Shown here: positions 640 through 57,622 of the stretch, in pieces | Layout of the letters: the number at the start of each line of letters is the position of its first letter | Numbering within the stretch: the first letter of the stretch is position 1 | Assembly: GCA_949451655.1 (NCBI GenBank) | Contig: CASTST010000002.1 | Location: 2,201-66,200, forward strand | Length of the DNA stretch: 64,000 nucleotides | Direction: 5' to 3' | Source: an uncultured Eubacteriales bacterium | GTDB lineage: Bacteria; Bacillota; Clostridia; Oscillospirales; CAG-272 | The notes under the pieces: generated by a model | Database searches by the model: none | Told to the model about the DNA's origin: nothing | The model's input: only the letters and a program-made list of their open reading frames with translations | Made by a program: the position numbers and the translations under genes

Positions 640-1148
640 CGCGGGGCACCTTCTGTTTAAGCCCCGCTTGTGCACAGGGGGTAGCATACTGCAAGCACGA
701 TGCGGGGCCCCCCATTTATGCCCCACTTGTGCAAAAGAGGAGGAACACGCTGCAAGCTCCCACCATATCCCAAGCCCCCTTTACAAGGGAAGGTGGCATG
801 ACATAAGCTTCTACCATACCCCAAAGCCCCCCTGTGCAAAGGGAGTGCGGCTGCAAGCTTCCACCGTATCCCAAGCCCCCCTTGTGCAAAGGGGGGTGGC
901 GGCGGAGCCGGCGGGGGGATTGTCTATGTTAAACTGCCGATTTGTAATTCCTGCAAAATGATCGCTTTACAATCCCCCAGTCGACATCGCTGCGCTTAGT
1001 CGACAGCCCCCTTTGCACAAGGGGGCCTTTTAAAGTTATGTGCTAAGCGGAAGCTCCCTATGAAGCCACGCAGTGGATCCTCACAAGGGAGCCTTTAATA
1101 TATTTTGTGGCTACACGACATGCCCCTTTGCACATGGAGCCTTTTTGT
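640..1148. repeat. Mosaic palindromic intergenic repeat cluster A
   Basis: Multiple CCC(C)TTGTGCAAAGGG(G)-type hairpins. One TIR-bounded core at 915..977 (orientation R: GGGGATTGT..ACTGCCGATTT..CAAAATGAT..ACAATCCCC). Submodules GCTGCAAGCT.CCACC.TATCCCAAGCCCCC and GCCACGCAGTGGATCCTCACAAGGGAG recur in other clusters. Lies between convergent 3' ends. Confidence 0.85.
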
Positions 1149-3084: not shown

Positions 3085-3520
3085 TACGCGAAAAGGTCCC
3101 CCCAGCAAAGGGAGCTGTCATGGAGCAAGCATTCATACAAAAAGGCTCCCTTGTGAGGATCCACTACGTGGTTCCATAGGGAACTGTCACGGAGCAAGCA
3201 CCCATATAAAAAGGCTCCCTTGTGCTGGAGCCGCATAGCGGATCCTATGGAGCTCCCGCGAAGCCACAAAATATATTAAAGGCTCCCTTGTGCAAAGGGA
3301 GCTCCCGCGTAGCGGGTGAGGGATTGTTTCTTTTATCATTTTGCAGAGATTACAAATCGACAGTATGTACAGACAATTCCTCCGTCACGGCTAAAGCCGC
3401 GCCACCTCCTTTTACACAAAGGAGGCTTGGAGAGATGGGAGCTTGCAGCCGCGCTCCCTTTGCACAAGGGGGCTTGGGGATATGGTGGTGGCTTACAGCG
3501 AGCCGCTTCTCTATCCTGGG
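3085..3520. repeat. Mosaic palindromic intergenic repeat cluster B
   Basis: Hairpins GGCTCCCTTGTG..; TIR core 3318..3382 (orientation F: GAGGGATTGT..TATCATTTTGCAG..AAATCGACAGT..ACAATTCCTC). Contains the reverse complement of the GCTGCAAGCT..CCCAAGCCCCC submodule seen in cluster A. Confidence 0.85.
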
Positions 3521-9142: not shown

Positions 9143-10231
9143 CTAACCATTGACATACGTGTACAGATTCAAACTGGTCGAATCAGCTATGCTTCCATCC
9201 AGTATATCCGCATTCATGAACCGCTTCAGCTGCGGATTGTAAAACCGCGTCCGCATGTACAACAGCCCATTGGGATCCGTCAGCACACCGTACTGCCCGT
9301 TGTAGCCGAAGATCAGCTTGCTGTCTCCCGTACGTTCAATCGTGCTTCCGTATGCGTCATACTTCAATGTGTCTGTCACATTGCCATCGATGTCTGTTAC
9401 TGCAACCACACTGCCACGGTAGTCGTAATGGTATACCATGTACTCCCCGTTGCATCGCGACCACAATAGTCCTTCCGTTCCATAGAAATAGCTGGTCTCA
9501 TTCTCATTGTGATCGCTCGTCCAGATCAGCCTGCTTCTTCCTCCCGAGCTGTCATACAGATACTGCATATTCGTATGATAGTAGTACATATTGATTCGGG
9601 TGCCGTCCGCATCATACCAGTATTCGTTATTGTCCCCGTCGATCTTTTTCAGGCGGTTGGTTACGTCATAGCTGATACTCACTTTCTTTCCCTGAATCTT
9701 GCAGGTGGTTGTATTTCCGTTCACCGTCACGCCGATTCCGTCTTCATTCATCTTGCTGATGCTGTTATTCTGATTGTATTTGTACGTGTTTGCTGTCCCA
9801 TCCGGCGTTACTGCTGTCAGGATGTTTCCTGCTGCGTCATAGGTGAAGGTTTCCGTATGAATCGCTTCGTTGGTACGCAAATCATATTCCACGCGCTGCG
9901 TTACCCGTCCCAGACTGTCGTAGGTCATACGGTAGTCTATCATTTCTATGGGATTCAGTTCCGATGTGATTCTTCCCAGCGTGTCATAGGTGAAGATATT
10001 GATAAACAGAATTTTTCCGGTCTTGTCTTTATCCGTCAGGATTTGCAGTCTGCCTGCGTTGTCGTAATTTTTCGTGACGGTTCCGCCGTCAATGTTGTTG
10101 ACTTTCGTAACCTGATTCTGTTTGTTGTACTCGTATGTGGTAGTGCATTCCTCTCCTTCCACTCCGCTGGTCAGCATGTTGTGGTTCGCGTCATAGGTAT
10201 ATACTGCTGCTTCTCCGGTTGCGTGCGTCAT
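9143..10231 (-). pseudogene. Orphan RHS core fragment (toxin-less duplicate of the RHS C-terminal core)
   Basis: The 362-aa ORF is almost identical to residues of the main RHS protein from MTHATGEAAVYTYD to NLYTYVNG. It stops right after YVNG, i.e. before the NPISFVDPFGL motif, and has no toxin tip. It is part of direct repeat 9147..10264. Confidence 0.8.
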
Positions 10232-10981: not shown

Positions 10982-13900
10982 TTATCGCCTTCCTGCTTGT
11001 ATTGCTATATATTCTGCAAATCCTTTTGCAACATCCGGATATATGCCTTCGCTATAGGATGAATCAAACATTGTCTTAAATGTATTCGTCAAAAGACCAG
11101 GTGCGAGATATCCCGCGGCACAGCTTTCCAATGCACTTTGACTTCCGTTGAACCCTCTATCCAAAAATAAAGAATATCTAGCTTTGTAACTATCACCATA
11201 ATATGTATCTATTGCTTCATAAATAGGTGTCTCATTCATATAATCTGCAATCAAAAAAGCATCAATGTCGCCAAGCAAATCGCTTTTGGGGAAGGTAGAT
11301 TTATCGCTTTCCATAAAATCCATTACAGCTTGTACAATATCTGAACTAGAAGATATACCAAGGTCTTGCACATTTCCAGCCAACGTAATCAGATCACCTG
11401 CCCAGCCTGCATATGCATTAAAAGCATTATCCAAACTATCATCCAAGCTGAAAGTATAGTAATAATTTGCATTTAAAGTAGCCATCGAATGCACAAAGTC
11501 AATTTCAGCACCAGAAGATGGATCAATAAACACGGCAGTTTTTAAATAATCATACTCATGAAACTGCTCTAAGTACTTTTGCCCTCCTCTGTCAATTGGT
11601 CCTGCTATTACGCTCCATGCTAAACCTTTTGCGGCACTTGCATCATAAAATCTTTTACTAATTATAAACTTCAATACTGCGTCATTTGCATACCTTTGGA
11701 CATAACCGGTATTCTCAGGTGTATTATAATAGGAAAAAGCTAAATTATACAGTCCTTCCAGTCCTGATATTATACTTAAATTATTGCTGTATCCCCGCTC
11801 CGCGCTCAACCCAAAAGGATCCACAAACGAAATCGGGTTCCCATTGACATACGTATACAGATTCAAACTGGTCGAATCCGATATACTTCCATCCAGTATA
11901 TCCGCATTCATGAACCGCTTCAGCTGCGGATTGTAAAACCGCGTCCGCATGTACAACAGCCCATTGGGATCCGTCAGCACACCGTACTGCCCGTTGTAGC
12001 CGAAGATCAGCTTGCTGTCTCCCGTACGTTCAATCGTGCTTCCGTATGCGTCATACTTCAATGTGTCTGTCACATTGCCATCGATGTCTGTTACTGCAAC
12101 CACACTGCCACGGTAGTCGTAATGGTATACCATGTACTCCCCGTTGCATCGCGACCACAATAGTCCTTCCGTTCCATAGAAATAGCTGGTCTCATTCTCA
12201 TTGTGATCGCTCGTCCAGATCAGCCTGCTTCTTCCTCCCGAGCTGTCATACAGATACTGCATATTCGTATGATAGTAGTACATATTGATTCGGGTGCCGT
12301 CCGCATCATACCAGTATTCGTTATTGTCCCCGTCGATCTTTTTCAGGCGGTTGGTTACGTCATAGCTGATACTCACTTTCTTTCCCTGAATCTTGCAGGT
12401 GGTTGTATTTCCGTTCACCGTCACGCCGATTCCGTCTTCATTCATCTTGCTGATGCTGTTATTCTGATTGTATTTGTACGTGTTTGCTGTCCCATCCGGC
12501 GTTACTGCTGTCAGGATGTTTCCTGCTGCGTCATAGGTGAAGGTTTCCGTATGAATCGCTTCGTTGGTACGCAAATCATATTCCACGCGCTGCGTTACCC
12601 GTCCCAGACTGTCGTAGGTCATACGGTAGTCTATCATTTCTATGGGATTCAGTTCCGATGTGATTCTTCCCAGCGTGTCATAGGTGAAGATATTGATAAA
12701 CAGAATTTTTCCGGTCTTGTCTTTATCCGTCAGGATTTGCAGTCTGCCTGCGTTGTCGTAATTTTTCGTGACGGTTCCGCCATCAATATTGTTAACCTTA
12801 GTGACCTGATTCTGTTTATTGTACTCGTATGTGGTAGTGCAGTCCTCTCCTTCCACTCCGCTGGTCAGCATGTTGTGGTTCGCGTCATACGTATATACTG
12901 CTGCTTCTCCGGTTGCGTGCGTCATTTTGCACAGGTTCCCGCAGCAGTCGTATTCGTACCGGACGACTCTACCATAGACATCCGTATACTTTGTTACACG
13001 GTTCAACGCATCATATTCCCGCTTCACCGTTCCGGTCGAATCGGAGGCTGTTAGTACGTTTCCGTTTGCATCGTATGTATATTGGATCGTTCCGGCTCCG
13101 CCGTCCTTTGCCGTGATCCTTCCTGAAAGGTCGTAAGCATACTCCATTTCATAATAGAAGAACCCGGTTACTACGGCATTCAGCAATCCTGCTGCGTTAT
13201 AGTAATAGCTATCCTTGTAGTCTGTATGAGTACTGCCTTTTCTAAACATACGACCGGTGGAATCGTAGGCATATTCTTTTACATGCCCGCCGGGACCTGT
13301 CATAGACGTCAGGTTCCCCATGCCGTCATAAGTAGCATAACTGATTCCGCCCGCTTTGTCAATAGCTGAAATCATCTGACCTGCTCCGTTGTAGGTATAG
13401 GTCGCAGACTGATTCATCGCATTGGTTTCTTTTGTCAGATTGCCTGCCCAGTCATACGCATTGGTGGTTTTACTCCCTGCCGCGTTGGTCACCTGGGTAG
13501 CATTTCCCATGCTGTCATACACTGCCTGATAATCCACATGACCGGATGCATTTGTGATTTTCACAATATTGCCGAGGGCGTCATATTCCTGGGTTATGGT
13601 ATTTCCTTTTGCATCCGTCTGGGCTGTCATTCTACCAAGGGCGTCATACGTATAGGATACCACATGCCCACCGGGATCTTTTGTCGAAACAAGTCGATTC
13701 AAGCTGTCATAAGTATTTGTTGTGATCTGATTCAGCGCATTTGTCACTGTCAGCAGATTGTCTGCTTTGTCATAGGAATACGTTGTTGTATTTCCTCTGG
13801 GGTCGGTGACGATAAGCAGGTTTCCGAAGGCGTCGTATTTGTTGTTTGTTTTGTTGCCCATGGGATCCGTCACATAGATCAAGTCTCCCGCAGTGTTATA

Positions 13901-17595: not shown

Positions 17596-17673
<78 letters not shown>

Positions 17674-17701
17674 ATATTGATTTGTAATAGATTCCTGCCG
17701 T

Positions 17702-17790
17702 TGGTGCCGGAAACCGGAATCGAACCGGTACGCGACTTTCGTCGCATTGGATTTTAAGTCCAAGGCGTCTACCTATTCCGCCATTCCGGC
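17702..17790 (-). tRNA. tRNA-Leu (anticodon TAA)
   Basis: The reverse complement reads GCCGGAATGGCGGAATAGGTAGACGCCTTGGACTTAAAATCCAATGCGACGAAAGTCGCGTACCGGTTCGATTCCGGTTTCCGGCACCA. It has a long variable arm and anticodon loop CT-TAA-AA. Confidence 0.9.
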
Positions 17791-39899: not shown

Positions 39900-40330
39900 C
39901 TTCAATCAAAAGGCTCCCATGTGAGCTGTCGCGCAGATCCCTACTTAAAAGGCCCCCTTGTGCGGGGATCCGGTTTCGAATCCCTGGGGCATCCCGCGGA
40001 GCAAGCACCCACATTAAAAGGCCCCCTTGTGCAAAGGGGGCTCCCGCGAAGCGGGTGGAGGATTGTTTGTATAAGCTGCCGAGTTATTATATCTGCAAAA
40101 TGATAGCATGACAATCCCTCAGTCATGCCTACGGCATGACAGCTCCCTTTGCACAAGGGAGCCTTTTTAAACGTGGGTGCTATGCGGAGATAGCTCCCTA
40201 TGGAGCCACGCAGTGGATCCTCACAAGGGAGGCTATGAAGTAGGACGAGGTTTGCAGCGCATCGCCTCCCTTTGATGGGGGGAGCCTTTTAAGTTATGTG
40301 TTACGCGATAGTTCCCTTTGCTGGGGAATT
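39900..40330. repeat. Mosaic palindromic intergenic repeat cluster C
   Basis: TIR core 40057..40120 (orientation R). Flanked by hairpins CCCGCGAAGCGGG and GTCATGCCTACGGCATGAC. Also contains GGGGATCCGGTTTCGAATCCCTGGGGCATCCCGCG and GCCACGCAGTGGATCCTCACAAGGGAG submodules. Confidence 0.85.
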
Positions 40331-40749: not shown

Positions 40750-40936
40750 ATTCCCCGGCAAAAGGGACCTGTCACACAGCACCCGCGTTAAAAGCCTCAT
40801 GTGAGGATCTGCGGCGCAGCTCCATAGGGGGCTGGCTCCGCGTAGCGGAGACTGAGGGATTGTTTTTACTATCATTTTGGATAATGATAAAATCGGCAAT
40901 CTGTGCAAACAATCCCCTCGCTTTGTACAAAGCAAA
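40750..40936. repeat. Mosaic palindromic intergenic repeat cluster D
   Basis: TIR core 40854..40919 (orientation F) preceded by hairpin CTCCGCGTAGCGGAG. Flanking C-rich hairpin variants. Confidence 0.8.
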
Positions 40937-42289: not shown

Positions 42290-42888
42290 AAGGCTGCCCA
42301 CGGCAAAGGAACTCCCGCAAAGCACAAACAAAAAGGCTCCCTTGTGTAAAGGGAGCTCCCGCGTTAGCGGGTGAGGGATTGTTTTGTGATGATCATTTTG
42401 CAGGATCAATAAATCGGCAGTATGTTTATACAATCCCTCCGAGTTTTGCTACGCAAAACCCACCTCCCTTTACACAAGGGAGGCTTAGGTTTGCTTGAAG
42501 GCTCCCTTGTGAGAATCCACTACGCGGCTCCTAAGGTACTATCGCGCAGCCACCGCGTTAAAAAGGCTCCCTGTGCGGGGATTCGCTTTCGAATCCCTGG
42601 GGCATCCCGCGAAGCGGGTGGGGGATTGTTTTTACTATCATTTTGGATAATGTTAAAGTCGGCAGTATGTACAGACAATTCCTCCGACACGATCGCTGCG
42701 CTTGGCCGCGCCACCTCCTTTTACACAAAGGAGGCTTATAAAATTGGTAGGAAGGCTCCCTTTGCACAAGGGGGGCTTTTATTGCTTGTGCTATACTACT
42801 GCAGCTGAGGGAGCCTTTTTACTTGTGCTATGCGGTTCCAGCACAGGGGAGGCTTTTTGTTTGGTGGGGCTCCTCACATGGGAGCCTT
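42290..42888. repeat. Mosaic palindromic intergenic repeat cluster E (two cores)
   Basis: TIR cores 42373..42439 and 42620..42684, both orientation F and 247 bp apart. Many CCCTT(T)GTGCAAAGGG-type hairpins. GGGGATTCGCTTTCGAATCCCTGGGGCATCCCGCG submodule. Fills the convergent alaA-like/uvrA gap. Confidence 0.9.
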
Positions 42889-45819: not shown

Positions 45820-46275
45820 TAAAGGCTCCCCTAGCAAAGGGAACGCTAAACTTAATCAAGCCCCCTTGTGCAAAGGGGGGTGGCTCGCTGTAAGCGAGTC
45901 GGGGGGATTGTAAAGCTGTCGATTTATAGATAATCTAAAATGACAATAGGGACAATCCCTCACCCGCTAACGCGGGAGCTCCCTTTGCACAAGGGAGCCT
46001 TTTAAGTAGGGTGCTACGCGGAGCCAGCACAAGAGGGGTGTCACAGCTTTGCTGTGACGGGGGGATTGTACGCATAGGCTGGTGATTTATAGATCCTGCA
46101 AAATGATAGATAACAATCCCTCAGTCATGCCTACGGCATGACAGCTCCCTTTGCACAAGGGAGCCTTTTAAGTATGCTGCGCTCCGCGGGATGCCCCAGG
46201 GATTCGAAACCGAATCCCCACACAAGGGAGCCTTTTAAGCTTGATTTCGCTACAGTCTCCGGCGGAGCCTTTTTG
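45820..46275. repeat. Mosaic palindromic intergenic repeat cluster F (two cores)
   Basis: TIR cores 45902..45961 and 46060..46122, both orientation R. Flanking hairpins GCTCGCTGTAAGCGAG, GTCACAGCTTTGCTGTGAC and GTCATGCCTACGGCATGAC. GGGATTCGAAACCGAATCCCC submodule. Confidence 0.9.
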
Positions 46276-48888: not shown

Positions 48889-48917
48889 TAGACAGAATTC
48901 GCCCGGTATGGTATAAT
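48889..48917 (+). promoter_or_regulatory. Candidate promoter upstream of repeat cluster G and the GS-like gene
   Basis: TAGACA (48889-48894), 17 nt, TGgTATAAT (-10 at 48912-48917). Confidence 0.4.
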
Positions 48918-48934
48918 GTGTGCAGGTAGTTTAT

Positions 48935-49240
48935 AAGTCTCCCATGTAAGGAGCCGCTATGCGGATCCTAGTGGAACTTGTCGCGCACGCACCTAACTCC
49001 CTAAGGCTCCCTTGTGCAAAGGGAGCTGGCTCCGCACAGCGGAGACTGAGGGATTGTCTATGCTATCATTTCAGATACCCTGAAAATTGGTAGTTTTTCA
49101 ATCCCTCCGTCACACCTACGGTGTGCCACCTCCCTTTACACAAGGGAGGCTATAAAGTAGGACGAGGTTTGCAGCGTGTCGCTTCCCTTTGCACAAGGGA
49201 GCCTAAAAAAGGTTTGCTCCAGCACAAGGGAGCCTTATAC
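48935..49240. repeat. Mosaic palindromic intergenic repeat cluster G
   Basis: TIR core 49048..49107 (orientation F, more diverged). Hairpins CTCCGCACAGCGGAG, GGCTCCCTTGTGCAAAGGGAGC and CCTCCCTTTACACAAGGGAGG. Confidence 0.85.
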
Positions 49241-52149: not shown

Positions 52150-52500
52150 ACTCAAACGAAAAGGCTCTCTTGTGCGGGGATTCGGTTTCGAATCCCTGGG
52201 GCATCCTGCGGAGCAAGCACCCACATTAAAAGGCCCCCTTGTGTGGGGATTCGGTTTCGAATCCCTGGGGCATCCCGCGAAGCGGGTGGGGGATTGTCCC
52301 TGCTATCATTTTGGATTATCTTCAAATCGGTAACCTATGCAGACAATCCCTCAGTCTCCGCTATGCGGAGCCAGCTCCCTTTGCACAAGGGAGCCTTTTT
52401 TGTTTGTGCTACGTGGGAACTCCCTTGGAACTGCGCAGCAGATCCTCACATGGGGTCTTTTGTAGTTAGTGCTGCACGACAGCTCCTTCGGATCCGCACG
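52150..52500. repeat. Mosaic palindromic intergenic repeat cluster H
   Basis: Two copies of GGGGATTCGGTTTCGAATCCCTGGGGCATCC(T/C)GCG. TIR core 52288..52352 (orientation F). Hairpins CTCCGCTATGCGGAG and GCTCCCTTTGCACAAGGGAGC. Confidence 0.9.
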
Positions 52501-52594: not shown

Positions 52595-52828
52595 AAATAT
52601 TCCATTGTATGACCCACTGTGCCGTGTAAAGTCATAATTAAGAAACCCTGCTAAAGCAAGGTGGTGCCCTATATCCGCACTTCGTGCTTCCAACGTCCGG
52701 GTCCGCCTGTCGCAAAGGAGAGGCGGGCGGGAGGCCTGCATTCCCGTTTGGGGTCGAGCTCCATTAATCAACTGTGGGTTTAATTAAAAACCTTATCACT
52801 AACACCGCAGGCTGAATAAATTCTTTAC

Positions 52829-55364: not shown

Positions 55365-55820
55365 AAGGAAAAGCCTTCCTTGTGAGAGACTCCGACAAAC
55401 ACCCCCTTGTACTGGAGTTTGCGTAGCACAAACATAAAAAGGCTCCCCCCAACTGGAGCTGCACAACACAAACATAAAAAGCCCCCTTGTGCAAAGGGGG
55501 GCGCGGCCAAGCGCAGCGATCGTGTCGGAGGGATTGTTTGCATAGACTTCCGATTTGAAGATTAGCTAAAATAATAGCATAGACAATCCCTCACCCGCTA
55601 CGCGGGAGCTCCCTTTGCACAAGGGAGCCTTTTATCGTGGGTACTACGCGGGAGCCCCCTTTGCACATGGGGGCCTTTTATCGTGGGTACTACGCGGAAG
55701 CCCCCTTTGCACATGGGGTCTTTTATCGTGGGTACTACGCGGAAGCCCCCTTTGCACATGGGGTCTTTTTCGTTGGGACCACGCGGGATGCCGCGGGGAT
55801 TCGAAAACGAATCCCCACTT
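55365..55820. repeat. Mosaic palindromic intergenic repeat cluster I (with 45-bp tandem array)
   Basis: TIR core 55528..55592 (orientation R). Four tandem 45-46-bp units at 55611..55791 (CCCCTTTGCACATGGGG.CTTTTATCGTGGGTACTACGCGGAAGC). Terminal GGGGATTCGAAAACGAATCCCC hairpin. Confidence 0.9.
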
Positions 55821-57324: not shown

Positions 57325-57622
57325 GCCTCCCCCAGCAAAAGGGAGGGGTAGCTGGAAGCTCCGCCCCTCTTTTTAGCCTCCCTTGTGCAAAGGGAGGTGT
57401 CACAGCTTTGCTGTGGCGGAGGGATTGTAAAACTACCGATTTACAGATTATCTAAAATGATAGCAAGGACACAATCCCCCACCCGCTTCGCGACAGCCCC
57501 CTTGGAGCCACGCAGTGGATCCTCACATGGGGGCCTAACACAAGACTTGAGCCTCCCCTGTGCAAGGGGAGGTGCCGGCAAAGCGTAGCGATGGCGGCGG
57601 AGGGGTTGTTCGTCTATACATT
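57325..57622. repeat. Mosaic palindromic intergenic repeat cluster J
   Basis: TIR core 57419..57479 (orientation R) preceded by GTCACAGCTTTGCTGTGGC. GCCACGCAGTGGATCCTCACATGGGGG submodule. Degenerate half-core GGAGGGGTTGT at about 57598. Confidence 0.85.

What the first reader, a model, noticed from the sequence alone, without database searches (positions are those of the whole stretch)
42373..42684. A 60-67-bp core bounded by 10-bp inverted repeats GAGGGATTGT/ACAATCCCTC occurs 12 times (MITE-like or small-RNA-like unit)
Copies lie at:
- 915-977, 3318-3382;
- 40057-40120, 40854-40919;
- 42373-42439, 42620-42684;
- 45902-45961, 46060-46122;
- 49048-49107, 52288-52352;
- 55528-55592, 57419-57479.

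The interior is asymmetric and conserved (..TATCATTTTG(C/G)A....AAATCGGCAGT..), so orientation can be scored: 6 forward and 6 reverse. Each core is flanked on both sides by a short variable hairpin whose stem sequence differs between copies but keeps its pairing (CCCGCGAAGCGGG, CTCCGCGTAGCGGAG, GTCACAGCTTTGCTGTGAC, GTCATGCCTACGGCATGAC). A C-rich hairpin follows each of these, giving a nested palindrome of about 150 bp. Compensatory variation in the flanking stems suggests selection on structure in DNA or RNA.
Basis: seen in the sequence. Interest (0 to 1): 0.6.

Follow-up and report, generated by a model that had tools for sequence, protein, structure and literature searches.

The report
Gene-less slot of DUF559 palindromic repeat
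The 65-base "core" is the empty middle of a 150-base folded DNA repeat that fills the gaps between genes in this gut bacterium; in related bacteria the same middle holds a small nuclease gene, which gives a 30-year-old orphan repeat type (E. coli BoxC-like) a testable partner enzyme.

Summary
All 12 copies are there, 6 in each orientation. The genome holds about 250-290.

The 10-mers GAGGGATTGT/ACAATCCCTC are not transposon ends. The inherited unit is the whole ~150-bp nested palindrome. It has a polarity: the core's direction matches the two kinds of flank in 169 of 238 copies.

In 79 of 80 related loci from herbivore-gut Clostridia, the same arm, hairpin and 10-mer sit directly before the ATG of a 122-aa DUF559 (Vsr-fold) nuclease gene. 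There the left 10-mer is positioned as the ribosome-binding site. The right 10-mer and its hairpin encode the last nine residues.

Here and in three sister species the slot holds a 45-bp AT-rich filler. Each 10-mer covaries with its adjacent arm as a mirror repeat (odds ratio 152), not with its partner 10-mer. That is the layout of E. coli BoxC/TMECO triplex motifs.

Units are gained, lost and inverted between sister species. I saw no target duplication, and found no IS or RAYT.

The mechanism is inferred: the nuclease acts on folded DNA and the unit spreads by repair copying.

The scan has reported the DUF559-BoxC link before, on other pieces of this genome and in other genomes.

The parts
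914..978 (+). Core copy. Strand is given in 'gene orientation', the direction in which DUF559 reads in full cassettes.
3318..3382 (-). Core copy.
40057..40120 (+). Core copy. The left 10-mer is the variant GGAGGATTGT. This copy happens to carry a strong promoter-like match, TTGTCA-17-TATAAT, which is not conserved in the family.
40854..40918 (-). Core copy. The right flank is truncated and lacks a B arm.
42335..42356 (.). A-type arm of focal unit 1: the C-rich hairpin GGCTCCCTTGTGTAAAGGGAGC, preceded by an A-run. It looks like an intrinsic terminator on the minus strand.
42358..42371 (.). Variable mini-hairpin CCCGCGTTAGCGGG of focal unit 1.
42373..42439 (-). Focal core copy 1: the 10-mers at 42373-42382 and 42430-42439, with a 47-bp AT-rich filler between them.
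42443..42459 (.). Variable mini-hairpin GTTTTGC-TAC-GCAAAAC of focal unit 1.
42463..42483 (.). B-type arm of focal unit 1: CCTCCCTTTACACAAGGGAGG.
42560..42605 (.). Composite left arm of focal unit 2: a C-rich hairpin with a nested GGGGATTCGCTTTCGAATCCC hairpin in its loop.
42606..42618 (.). Variable mini-hairpin CCCGC-GAA-GCGGG of focal unit 2, the commonest hairpin type in the genome.
42620..42684 (-). Focal core copy 2. It is 97% identical to its positional orthologue in sister genome G041, although both flanking hairpins differ.
42714..42734 (.). B-type arm of focal unit 2: CCTCCTTTTACACAAAGGAGG.
45902..45961 (+). Core copy. This spacer is empty in sister genome G015.
46060..46122 (+). Core copy. 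It has an orthologue in G041 and is absent in G015.
49048..49107 (-). Core copy. The whole unit is inverted relative to the orthologous units of G015 (90% identical after reverse-complementing) and G041.
52288..52352 (-). Core copy. It is preceded by two 69-nt tandem arm modules.
55528..55592 (+). Core copy. It has an orthologue in G041 (85% identical, with flanks 88-92% identical).
57419..57480 (+). Core copy.
57560..57609 (+). Solo half-unit (arm, hairpin, then GAGGGGTTGT) abutting unique DNA. It is present in all three sister genomes compared.

Best explanation
SHOWN. The 'core' is the central slot of a polar, ~150-bp nested palindrome made of two inward-facing half-units. Each half-unit reads 5'->3' towards the centre as follows:
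- a C-rich hairpin arm (CCTCCCTT...AAGGGAGG or GCTCCCTT...AAGGGAGC);
- a hypervariable mini-hairpin with a G-N-A triloop closed by C-G;

That tract is a mirror repeat of the adjacent arm's purine strand. This gives the C-stem / G-stem / G-stem layout of E. coli BoxC/PIT/TMECO intrastrand-triplex motifs, with the mini-hairpin taking the place of loop 2.

In related gut Clostridia the identical half-units bracket a 122-aa DUF559 (Vsr-fold PD-(D/E)XK) nuclease ORF. The left tract sits where a Shine-Dalgarno site would be (GAGGGATTGTA-ATG). The right tract and its hairpin encode the C-terminus ..EQSLSQLR*. The right arm has the form of an intrinsic terminator after the gene.

In this genome and three sister species the slot holds a 45-bp AT-rich filler instead. 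That gene-less unit has multiplied to at least 250 copies. Copies lie between genes, most densely between convergent genes, and are gained, lost and inverted between sister species.

INFERRED. The unit works as DNA, not RNA. The half-units fold, as hairpins and possibly a short triplex, when the strands are separated or supercoiled. The genome's single conserved DUF559 nuclease recognises or cuts that folded structure. The break is then repaired by copying from another unit. This would be a homing-like gene conversion into terminator-like palindromes, which spreads and homogenises units without target duplications. As a side effect, the arms could stop transcription.
For: - Architecture and polarity: (169 B-left/A-right units against 27 flipped).
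- A full cassette with identical 10-mers, junction bases and arms: G123; G007. In those loci the left 10-mer lies within 16 nt of the start in 79 of 80, the right 10-mer lies near the stop in 74 of 75 (inside the ORF in 73), and a terminator-like arm follows the stop in 71 of 75.
- A series of slot sizes between the same 10-mers: 8 nt (G002), 21 nt (G169), 45 nt (here) and about 370 nt (the gene).
- Mirror covariation within this genome: arm GGGAG goes with tract GAGGG in 248 of 253 half-units, and arm GGGGG goes with GGGGG in 89 of 118 (odds ratio 152). The two 10-mers of one unit do not covary.
- The same intervening hairpin occurs with both matched states, 103 matched against 12 mismatched.
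- Across 20 half-unit families, the mean mirror run is 6.5 against 5.16 +/- 0.26 when pairings are permuted; 0 of 5000 permutations reach 6.5.
- Turnover between sister species.
- Association across 201 genomes of the family: 23 of 25 genomes with at least 10 arms have a DUF559 homologue, against 48 of 176 others.
- The genome's own DUF559 gene is intact and under purifying selection: 11 synonymous against 5 nonsynonymous codon differences versus G041.
- Nuclease fold: PDB 3HRL, E = 4e-13.
- The cassette's arms and 10-mers are near-identical across genera, and its protein is 80-88% identical across the 80 loci. Yet uvrA is only 72% identical within this genus.
- E. coli ycjD ends in a BoxC-like palindrome 154 nt from TMECO #9 (PMC4666352, Table 1).
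Against: - No nuclease activity, cut site or binding specificity is known for any DUF559 protein.
- Sister genomes G015 and G021 have 60 and 138 cores but no DUF559 hit, though both are only 67% complete.
- This genome's own DUF559 gene sits in a degenerate cassette without clean 10-mers.
- Copies are old: filler identity is 67% pairwise and 86% to the nearest neighbour, and only 6 copies have an identical twin. No recent burst is visible.
- The co-occurrence statistics are inflated by shared ancestry, and each cassette itself carries two arms.
- The triplex would be short (8-9 triplets) and has a 16-25-nt loop 2. The TMECO paper could not show triplex formation in vivo even for E. coli (PMC4666352).
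- The strings used were picked by hand.
- The origin and role of the 45-bp filler remain unexplained. Its best match to the gene, at the YIADFY codons, is not significant.
Confidence: 0.5

Rival explanations
1. Passenger model. The palindromic units spread and are homogenised by host processes alone: recombination between repeats, and template switching at hairpins during replication. DUF559 is then either a selfish homing-type nuclease gene that has colonised the central slot, or a cargo gene. It would not be the engine of the repeats.
For: - Slots occur with 8-, 21- and 45-nt fillers and no gene.
- G015 and G021 have many units and no detected DUF559.
- Modules are shuffled like a mosaic. 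The hairpins were replaced around a core that stayed 97% identical.
- Whole units invert between species.
- Seven genomes with at least 4 arms lack a DUF559 hit.
- An earlier scan note (e1-703951) raises the same caveat.
Against: - 92% of arm-rich genomes have a DUF559 homologue.
- The gene is fitted very tightly to the unit, sharing its ribosome-binding site, coding end and terminator with it in 73-79 of 80 loci.
- The solitary gene in this repeat-rich genome is under purifying selection.
- Host processes alone do not explain why identical arms and 10-mers occur across more than 50 genera.
Confidence: 0.3
2. Host-function model. The units are kept mainly because they do something for the cell: they act as bidirectional intrinsic terminators or insulators, or stabilise mRNA 3' ends. 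That would make them like REP/BIME elements.
For: - Arms score as intrinsic terminators: 24 terminator-like sites against 8.1 +/- 3.0 in shuffles.
- Units are three times denser between convergent genes (19% of such spacers) than in tandem or divergent spacers, about 6%.
- In G015 the orthologous spacer holds only a plain terminator hairpin where this genome has two units.
- 121 of 238 units have an arm followed by a T-run on the downstream side.
Against: - A plain hairpin does the same job in the sister species, so the 150-bp unit with its filler is not needed.
- Arrays also lie in divergent spacers, for example upstream of uvrA.
- PIT/TMECO elements showed no terminator or promoter activity in E. 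coli, according to PMC4666352.
- This model does not explain the mirror covariation or the nuclease cassette.
- It can coexist with the best explanation as a side effect.
Confidence: 0.12
3. Classical MITE or REPIN. The 65-bp core, or the whole unit, is a non-autonomous transposon moved by a DDE/IS transposase that recognises the 10-bp terminal repeats, or by a RAYT (Y1) transposase that recognises the hairpins.
For: - The element has inverted 10-mers, a high copy number and presence/absence polymorphism.
- The hairpin doublets resemble REPINs.
Against: - No pair of these 10-mers brackets a transposase in the genome.
- There is no PF01797 hit.
- No target duplication was seen at the compared sites.
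- The conserved, polar unit extends beyond the 10-mers.
- The gene-carrying form encodes a nuclease, not a transposase.
Confidence: 0.04
4. Structured small RNA or 3'-UTR element. The core and its hairpins are selected as RNA.
For: The stems covary, and the units would be co-transcribed with upstream genes.
Against: - No Rfam family matches.
- There is no conserved promoter.
- There is no strand bias relative to genes, 39 against 35.
- The G-N-A triloops sit symmetrically on both strands, as expected for DNA hairpins.
- The variable position in the two 10-mers shows no compensatory change between them.
Confidence: 0.04

Closest known systems
BoxC / PIT / TMECO intrastrand-triplex motif repeats of E. 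coli and other Proteobacteria (Holder et al. 2015, PMC4666352; BoxC of Bergler 1992, cited from memory)
   Same: - The layout is C-rich stem, loop, G-rich stem, loop, then a second G-rich block that mirrors the first.
- The repeats are intergenic and occur on both strands.
- They often occur as inward-facing pairs of two subtypes (A with B) around a short spacer.
- Their sites vary between strains.
- No transposase lies nearby.
- In E. coli the only DUF559 gene, ycjD, ends inside such a palindrome 154 nt from TMECO #9.
   Different: - The sequence does not fit the TMECO consensus CCCTCNCCC-N3-6-GGGNGAGGG-N3-GGGNGAGGG.
- Loop 2 is a 13-19-nt G-N-A mini-hairpin rather than 3 nt.
- The stems are 8-9 nt with an A/T-rich inner end.
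- Copy number is more than ten times higher than in E. coli K-12 (23 copies).
- The central spacer carries a conserved 45-bp filler.
- The link to DUF559 does not appear in that paper (0 mentions).
REP / REPIN-RAYT systems (Pseudomonas, enterobacteria; PMC3337134)
   Same: - They are abundant extragenic palindromes arranged as inverted doublets with a spacer.
- A single-copy domesticated enzyme gene sits between the repeats.
- The gene-less doublets far outnumber the gene.
   Different: - The enzyme here is a PD-(D/E)XK (Vsr-fold) nuclease, not a Y1 HUH transposase.
- No RAYT gene was found in the genome.
- There is no conserved GTAG 5' of the hairpin.
- The gene shares its ribosome-binding site and its coding end with the repeats.
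BIMEs (bacterial interspersed mosaic elements) of E. coli
   Same: Both are mosaic intergenic arrays built from a small set of palindromic modules in alternating orientation. Both are often found at the 3' ends of operons.
   Different: The module sequences are unrelated. Nothing here shows binding of IHF, gyrase or Pol I. A nuclease-carrying form exists here.
Free-standing or intron-borne homing endonucleases with a Vsr-like core (I-Bth0305I; PMC3424549 lists Vsr, DUF559 and 3R3P in one clade)
   Same: Both are small, selfish-looking nuclease genes of the same fold that sit exactly in the middle of a conserved, repeated target-like sequence. Spread by break repair would leave no target duplication.
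   Different: - There is no intron or intein.
- The 'target' is a multi-copy palindrome at many loci, not one allele.
- The protein is the bare 120-aa core with no DNA-binding extension.
- Homing has not been shown.

Membership tests
BoxC/PIT/TMECO triplex-motif repeat | A C-rich stem and a G-rich stem form a hairpin, followed by a third G-rich block that is the mirror repeat of the G-stem. | tested here: met
   The arm purine strand AAGGGAGG is mirrored by the tract GGAGGGATT, giving 8-9 allowed purine-motif triplets. The A/G state of the tract follows the adjacent arm: 248/5 against 29/89, odds ratio 152. This holds across shuffled intervening hairpins.
BoxC/PIT/TMECO triplex-motif repeat | A match to the published pattern CCCTCNCCC-N3-6-GGGNGAGGG-N3-GGGNGAGGG, with a 3-nt second loop. 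| tested here: not met
   The unit reads CCTCCCTT-loop-AAGGGAGG-(16-25 nt hairpin)-GGAGGGATT. Both the sequence and loop 2 differ from PMC4666352.
BoxC/PIT/TMECO triplex-motif repeat | [quoted passage not shown] | not testable with these tools
   This needs oligonucleotide biophysics.
BoxC/PIT/TMECO triplex-motif repeat | Intergenic, no strand bias, inward-facing A+B pairs, and sites that vary between relatives. | tested here: met
MITE | The terminal inverted repeats are the outer ends of the mobile unit. | tested here: not met
   Conservation and polarity run on through the hairpins and arms. Arrays are bounded by AAAAGGCTCCC...GGGAGCCTTT.
MITE | Target-site duplication at insertions. | tested here: inconclusive
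   None was visible at four orthologous spacers compared with G041 and G015. All of those are multi-module arrays rather than clean single insertions.
MITE | A cognate IS with the same ends that encodes a transposase. | tested here: not met
   No such pair exists in the genome. The gene-carrying form encodes DUF559.
REP/REPIN-RAYT | A RAYT (Y1 transposase, PF01797) gene flanked by the repeats. | tested here: not met
   There is no PF01797 hit in the genome, which is 89% complete. The control genomes do give hits.
REP/REPIN-RAYT | Inverted doublets of a short palindrome with a spacer, far outnumbering the enzyme gene. | tested here: met
   About 250-290 gene-less units against 1 DUF559 gene.
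DUF559 (PF04480) nuclease cassette | The ORF matches PF04480 and has the Vsr-like fold. | tested here: met
   The genome's own gene scores 97 bits against a 20.6-bit cut-off. The cassette protein matches PDB 3HRL with E = 4e-13 and the NCBIfam YcjD-type model below its cut-off.
DUF559 (PF04480) nuclease cassette | The window's units carry the ORF. | tested here: not met
   All 12 window cores, and all others in the genome, are gene-less. The only DUF559 gene is on another contig, in a degenerate cassette.
Small regulatory RNA | Its own promoter, strand specificity, and a known family or a discrete transcript. | tested here: not met
   Transcript evidence was not obtainable.

The most novel reading that the evidence does not exclude
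DUF559 nucleases and BoxC-type half-units (arm, mini-hairpin, mirror tract) together form an undescribed class of mobile DNA. The class would be widespread, from Clostridia to E. coli. The enzyme would be a structure-specific PD-(D/E)XK nuclease that recognises a folded hairpin or triplex, not a transposase. The element would spread by break-induced copying into terminator-like palindromes. The roughly 250 gene-less units here would be its non-autonomous offspring, mobilised in trans by the single conserved DUF559 gene.
Probability: 0.27. Interest if true: 0.85.

Novelty: new variant of a known kind. Interest (0 to 1): 0.62.

Why it matters
BoxC/PIT/TMECO repeats have been known in E. coli since 1992, with no function and no partner protein. 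DUF559 is a large family of nucleases with no known role.

This genome is a natural experiment with about 470 half-units. It shows that the 'inverted repeat' is constrained to mirror its neighbouring arm, which is the signature of fold-back or triplex DNA. It is not constrained to pair with its partner.

The same half-units are fused base-for-base to a DUF559 gene in dozens of other species. That makes a concrete experiment possible: test the nuclease on the folded half-unit, with and without mirror-breaking changes.

If the link holds, it defines a new way for selfish DNA to move. It would also explain why such genomes assemble poorly and why their spacers turn over so fast.

Tried and rejected
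1. I tested whether the 45-bp filler is an internal-deletion remnant of the DUF559 gene. The best local match falls repeatedly on the YIADFY codons but is not significant against shuffles (p 0.014-0.56). Not established.
2. I tested whether the filler is a promoter. Promoter-like sites are not in excess (8 against 6.4), and only one copy has a strong match. Rejected.
3. I looked for an IS or transposase between distant 10-mer pairs. Only host genes or chance pairs turned up.
4. I looked for a RAYT gene. None was found.
5. I scanned the family for GGATTGT-N385-415-ACAATCC. The hits were mostly chance, but the scan found the G123 cassette and a 41-nt mini-core.
6. A conserved 135-nt tail follows the cassette in other genomes. 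I asked whether it is part of the unit here. It is absent from this genome.
7. My first regex for typing the arms was poorly designed. I replaced it with junction typing.
8. My first interior-anchored search used the wrong gap length. I corrected it.
10. Literature searches for DUF559 together with palindromic repeats found no paper that links them.
Full report
OBSERVATION

The 10-mer GAGGGATTGT, with up to 1 mismatch, occurs 26 times in the window. Shuffles give 4.0 +/- 2.0.

The window is G000:C2:2201-66200, part of a 2.44-Mb draft genome in 251 contigs with 46.5% G+C. Genome-wide, a regex finds 286 cores with a modal length of 64-65 nt. When copies are found from the interior alone, there are about 247 units, and 206 of them have both 10-mers within one mismatch of consensus.

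The consensus, written with ATCATTTTG first, is GAGGGATTGT-TATACTATCATTTTGCAGGATCTACAAATCGGCAGTATGT..AG-ACAATCCCTC. The 10-mers and two interior motifs (TCATTTT and AAATCG) are 87-100% conserved. The remaining positions are 42-80% conserved.

ANATOMY

When the cores are oriented by their interior, the flanks are not symmetric.
- One side reads AAAAGGCTCCCTTGTGCAAAGGGAGC-T-[hairpin]-ACT|core. I call this the 'A' arm.
- The other side reads core|CG-[hairpin]-CCACCTCCCTTTGCACAAGGGAGGCTT. I call this the 'B' arm.

169 of 238 units have the same A/B polarity relative to the interior. 27 are flipped, 13 are A/A and 9 are B/B. So the inherited unit is the whole ~150-bp nested palindrome, not the 65-bp core.

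The inner hairpins are perfect in about 90% of copies, in more than 100 distinct sequences on each side. Their loops are G-N-A triloops closed by C-G: GTA, GCA and GAA on one strand of one side, and on the other strand of the other side. Re-pairing half-stems between units gives a perfect stem in only 11-18% of trials. From memory, d(GCGNAGC) is the classic hyper-stable DNA mini-hairpin.

The arms score as intrinsic terminators: 24 terminator-like sites against 8.1 +/- 3.0 in shuffles.

THE GENE-CARRYING FORM

I followed a lead from earlier scan notes on other pieces of this genome and tested it independently. The genome has one DUF559 gene (PF04480, 97 bits) on contig C144, in a degenerate cassette.

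In G007, of the same genus, a DUF559 ORF sits between arm, GAA-hairpin and GGAAGGATTGT on one side and ACAATCCTTCC, hairpin and arm on the other. In G123, of another genus, the ends are exactly GAGGGATTGT and ACAATCCCTC, with the same junction bases and arms.

A scan of species-representative genomes found at least 566 close relatives of that protein. The best 80 are MAGs of herbivore-gut Clostridia (Acutalibacteraceae, Oscillospiraceae and 'Eubacteriales') and are 80-88% identical at protein level. Their layout is highly uniform:
- In 79 of 80, the left 10-mer lies within 16 nt of the start, reading GAGGGATTGTA-ATG. It is therefore placed as the Shine-Dalgarno site.
- In 74 of 75, the right 10-mer lies at the stop, and in 73 of those it is inside the ORF. 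The sequence GAA CAA TCC CTC AGT CAG CTT CGC TGA encodes ..EQSLSQLR*, and the stop codon lies inside the variable hairpin.
- In 71 of 75, the A arm with a T-run follows.

The cassette has 43 different upstream and 61 different downstream contexts.

The arm 19-mer is found in 72 of 201 genomes of the family, in 52 of 97 genera. Arm pairs are spaced about 100 nt apart in gene-less units and about 422 nt apart in gene-carrying ones. Between the same 10-mers, the slot holds 8 nt in G002, 21 nt in G169, 45 nt here, or the gene.

The 45-nt filler motif occurs only in G000, G041, G021 and G015, out of 32 genomes of the genus. The full-core pattern, run on 41 relatives that did not include G041, matched only G000, G021 and G015 in numbers.

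WHAT THE '10-BP INVERTED REPEAT' REALLY IS

Position 2 of the 10-mer is polymorphic (A or G). Between the two 10-mers of one unit this is not compensatory: A-T 124, G-C 8, G.T 52, A.C 51.

It covaries strongly with the neighbouring arm instead. Arm GGGAG goes with GAGGG in 248 of 253 half-units, and arm GGGGG goes with GGGGG in 89 of 118 (odds ratio 152, p = 4e-53). The p-value overstates the case because copies are related. However, the lack of covariation between the two 10-mers of a unit is a built-in control.

The same intervening hairpin sequence occurs with both matched states in at least 10 hairpin classes, 103 matched against 12 mismatched. So this is not simply inheritance as a block.

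The tract GGAGGGATT is the mirror image of the arm's purine strand AAGGGAGG. That gives 8-9 consecutive triplets allowed in a purine-motif triplex. Across 20 half-unit families from different genomes, the mean mirror run is 6.5. Permuted pairings give 5.16 +/- 0.26, with 0 of 5000 reaching 6.5, and a non-mirror control gives 5.15. Those strings were picked by hand.

This is the C-stem / G-stem / G-stem layout of E. coli BoxC/PIT/TMECO motifs (PMC4666352), with the mini-hairpin as loop 2. In E. coli K-12, the DUF559 gene ycjD ends (..TCA CCC TCT CCC TGA) inside such a palindrome, 154 nt from TMECO #9 of that paper. That paper found no mobility gene near TMECOs and never mentions ycjD.

DYNAMICS

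Window positions 37.6-61.9 kb are syntenic with G041 (88-94% identical) and G015 (80-92% identical). Every spacer differs between the three genomes.
- The focal spacer, 42299-42841, has two units here and one in G041. In G015 it has only a plain terminator hairpin, AAAAGGAAG..CTTCCTTTT.
- The spacer next to uvrA has 2, 1 and 0 units in the three genomes.
- At 48917-49216 the whole unit is inverted between species, with the core 90% identical after reverse-complementing.
- The core at 42620-42684 is 97% identical to its G041 orthologue, yet both flanking hairpins have been replaced.

Arrays are bounded by AAAAGGCTCCC...GGGAGCCTTT. No target duplication is visible.

Using crude ORF calls, units occupy 19% of convergent spacers but only about 6% of tandem or divergent ones. 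They show no orientation bias relative to genes, 39 co-oriented against 35 anti-oriented. Copies are old: filler identity is 67% pairwise and 86% to the nearest neighbour.

LINK TO THE NUCLEASE

Across 201 genomes of the family, 23 of 25 with at least 10 arms have a DUF559 homologue, against 48 of 176 others. Two caveats apply: related genomes are not independent, and each cassette contributes two arms of its own.

The genome's own gene differs from its G041 orthologue at 11 synonymous and 5 nonsynonymous codons, so it is maintained by selection. The protein matches the Vsr-like structure 3HRL. DUF559 is listed among gene families enriched at predicted inversions (odds ratio 14.3; PMC9881135).

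Against the link, G015 and G021 have many units but no DUF559 hit. Both are only 67% complete.

VERDICT

What is shown:
- The core is the gene-less central slot of a polar, BoxC-like, nested-palindromic unit.
- The full form of that unit carries a DUF559 nuclease gene.
- The '10-mers' are mirror tracts belonging to their own half-units.

What is inferred, at about 0.3-0.5:
- The unit folds at the DNA level.
- DUF559 acts on the fold.
- Spread occurs by repair copying.

The main rival, at about 0.3, is that the nuclease is a passenger or homing-type invader of a repeat that spreads by host recombination.

The classical MITE, REPIN-RAYT and small-RNA readings fail their defining tests. No paper in the library links DUF559 to these repeats.

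The scan itself has reported the DUF559-BoxC link before, on other pieces of this genome and in other genomes; a word search returned 379 notes from at least 314 genomes. What this case adds:
- the large within-genome covariation data set;
- the polarity of the unit;
- the shared ribosome-binding site and coding end;
- the clade-specific 45-bp filler.

Noticed in passing
window 52607-52816 (-): A 6S RNA gene (Rfam RF00013, 49 bits) lies directly next to the repeat array at 52159-52500.
   Followed up: no
window 39947-40031, 42560-42605, 52159-52312, 3128-3293: A ~69-nt tandem arm module whose loop holds the hairpin GGGGATTCGGTTTCGAATCCC. That hairpin contains a tRNA T-arm-like GGTTTCGAATCC. 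It is another module of the mosaic and was not explained.
   Followed up: no
L064-L142 (other genomes), about 135 nt after the A arm: In 54 of 69 loci the DUF559 cassette is followed by a conserved ~135-nt tail of three hairpins (..CTTGTCAATTTTCCTGACAAGCACTGCATTTGTGGACACAAATGCAAAATACGGCATACC..). The tail moves with the cassette. It is absent from this genome.
   Followed up: partly
L143 (E. coli K-12 NC_000913 1351204-1351802): The start codon of ycjD lies in a perfect 17-bp hairpin and its stop lies in a BoxC-like palindrome. A partial duplicate of the gene's 3' end lies between that palindrome and TMECO #9.
   Followed up: partly
window 42606-42711 vs G041:C1: The orthologous units have cores 97% identical, but both flanking mini-hairpins are completely different sequences drawn from the shared repertoire. 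The hairpins therefore turn over far faster than the core.
   Followed up: partly
window 48917-49216 vs G015:C4 and G041:C1: The whole unit (arms, hairpins and core) is inverted between sister species at an orthologous spacer.
   Followed up: partly
window 9147-9446 and 11841-12140: A 300-nt direct repeat at 99% identity, 2.7 kb apart. It is unrelated to the palindromic family.
   Followed up: no
L010/L012 (G010, G006), upstream of a 348-aa DUF559 fusion ORF: A longer gene-less element with different arms and tracts (GGTAGGGGTGT / GCAACCCTTCC). It still contains CTATCATTTTACAG and ACAAATCGG, the two conserved filler motifs. Its DUF559 domain is fused to a HAD-like protein.
   Followed up: no
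window 17599-17790 (-): Two tRNA genes (Rfam RF00005).
   Followed up: no
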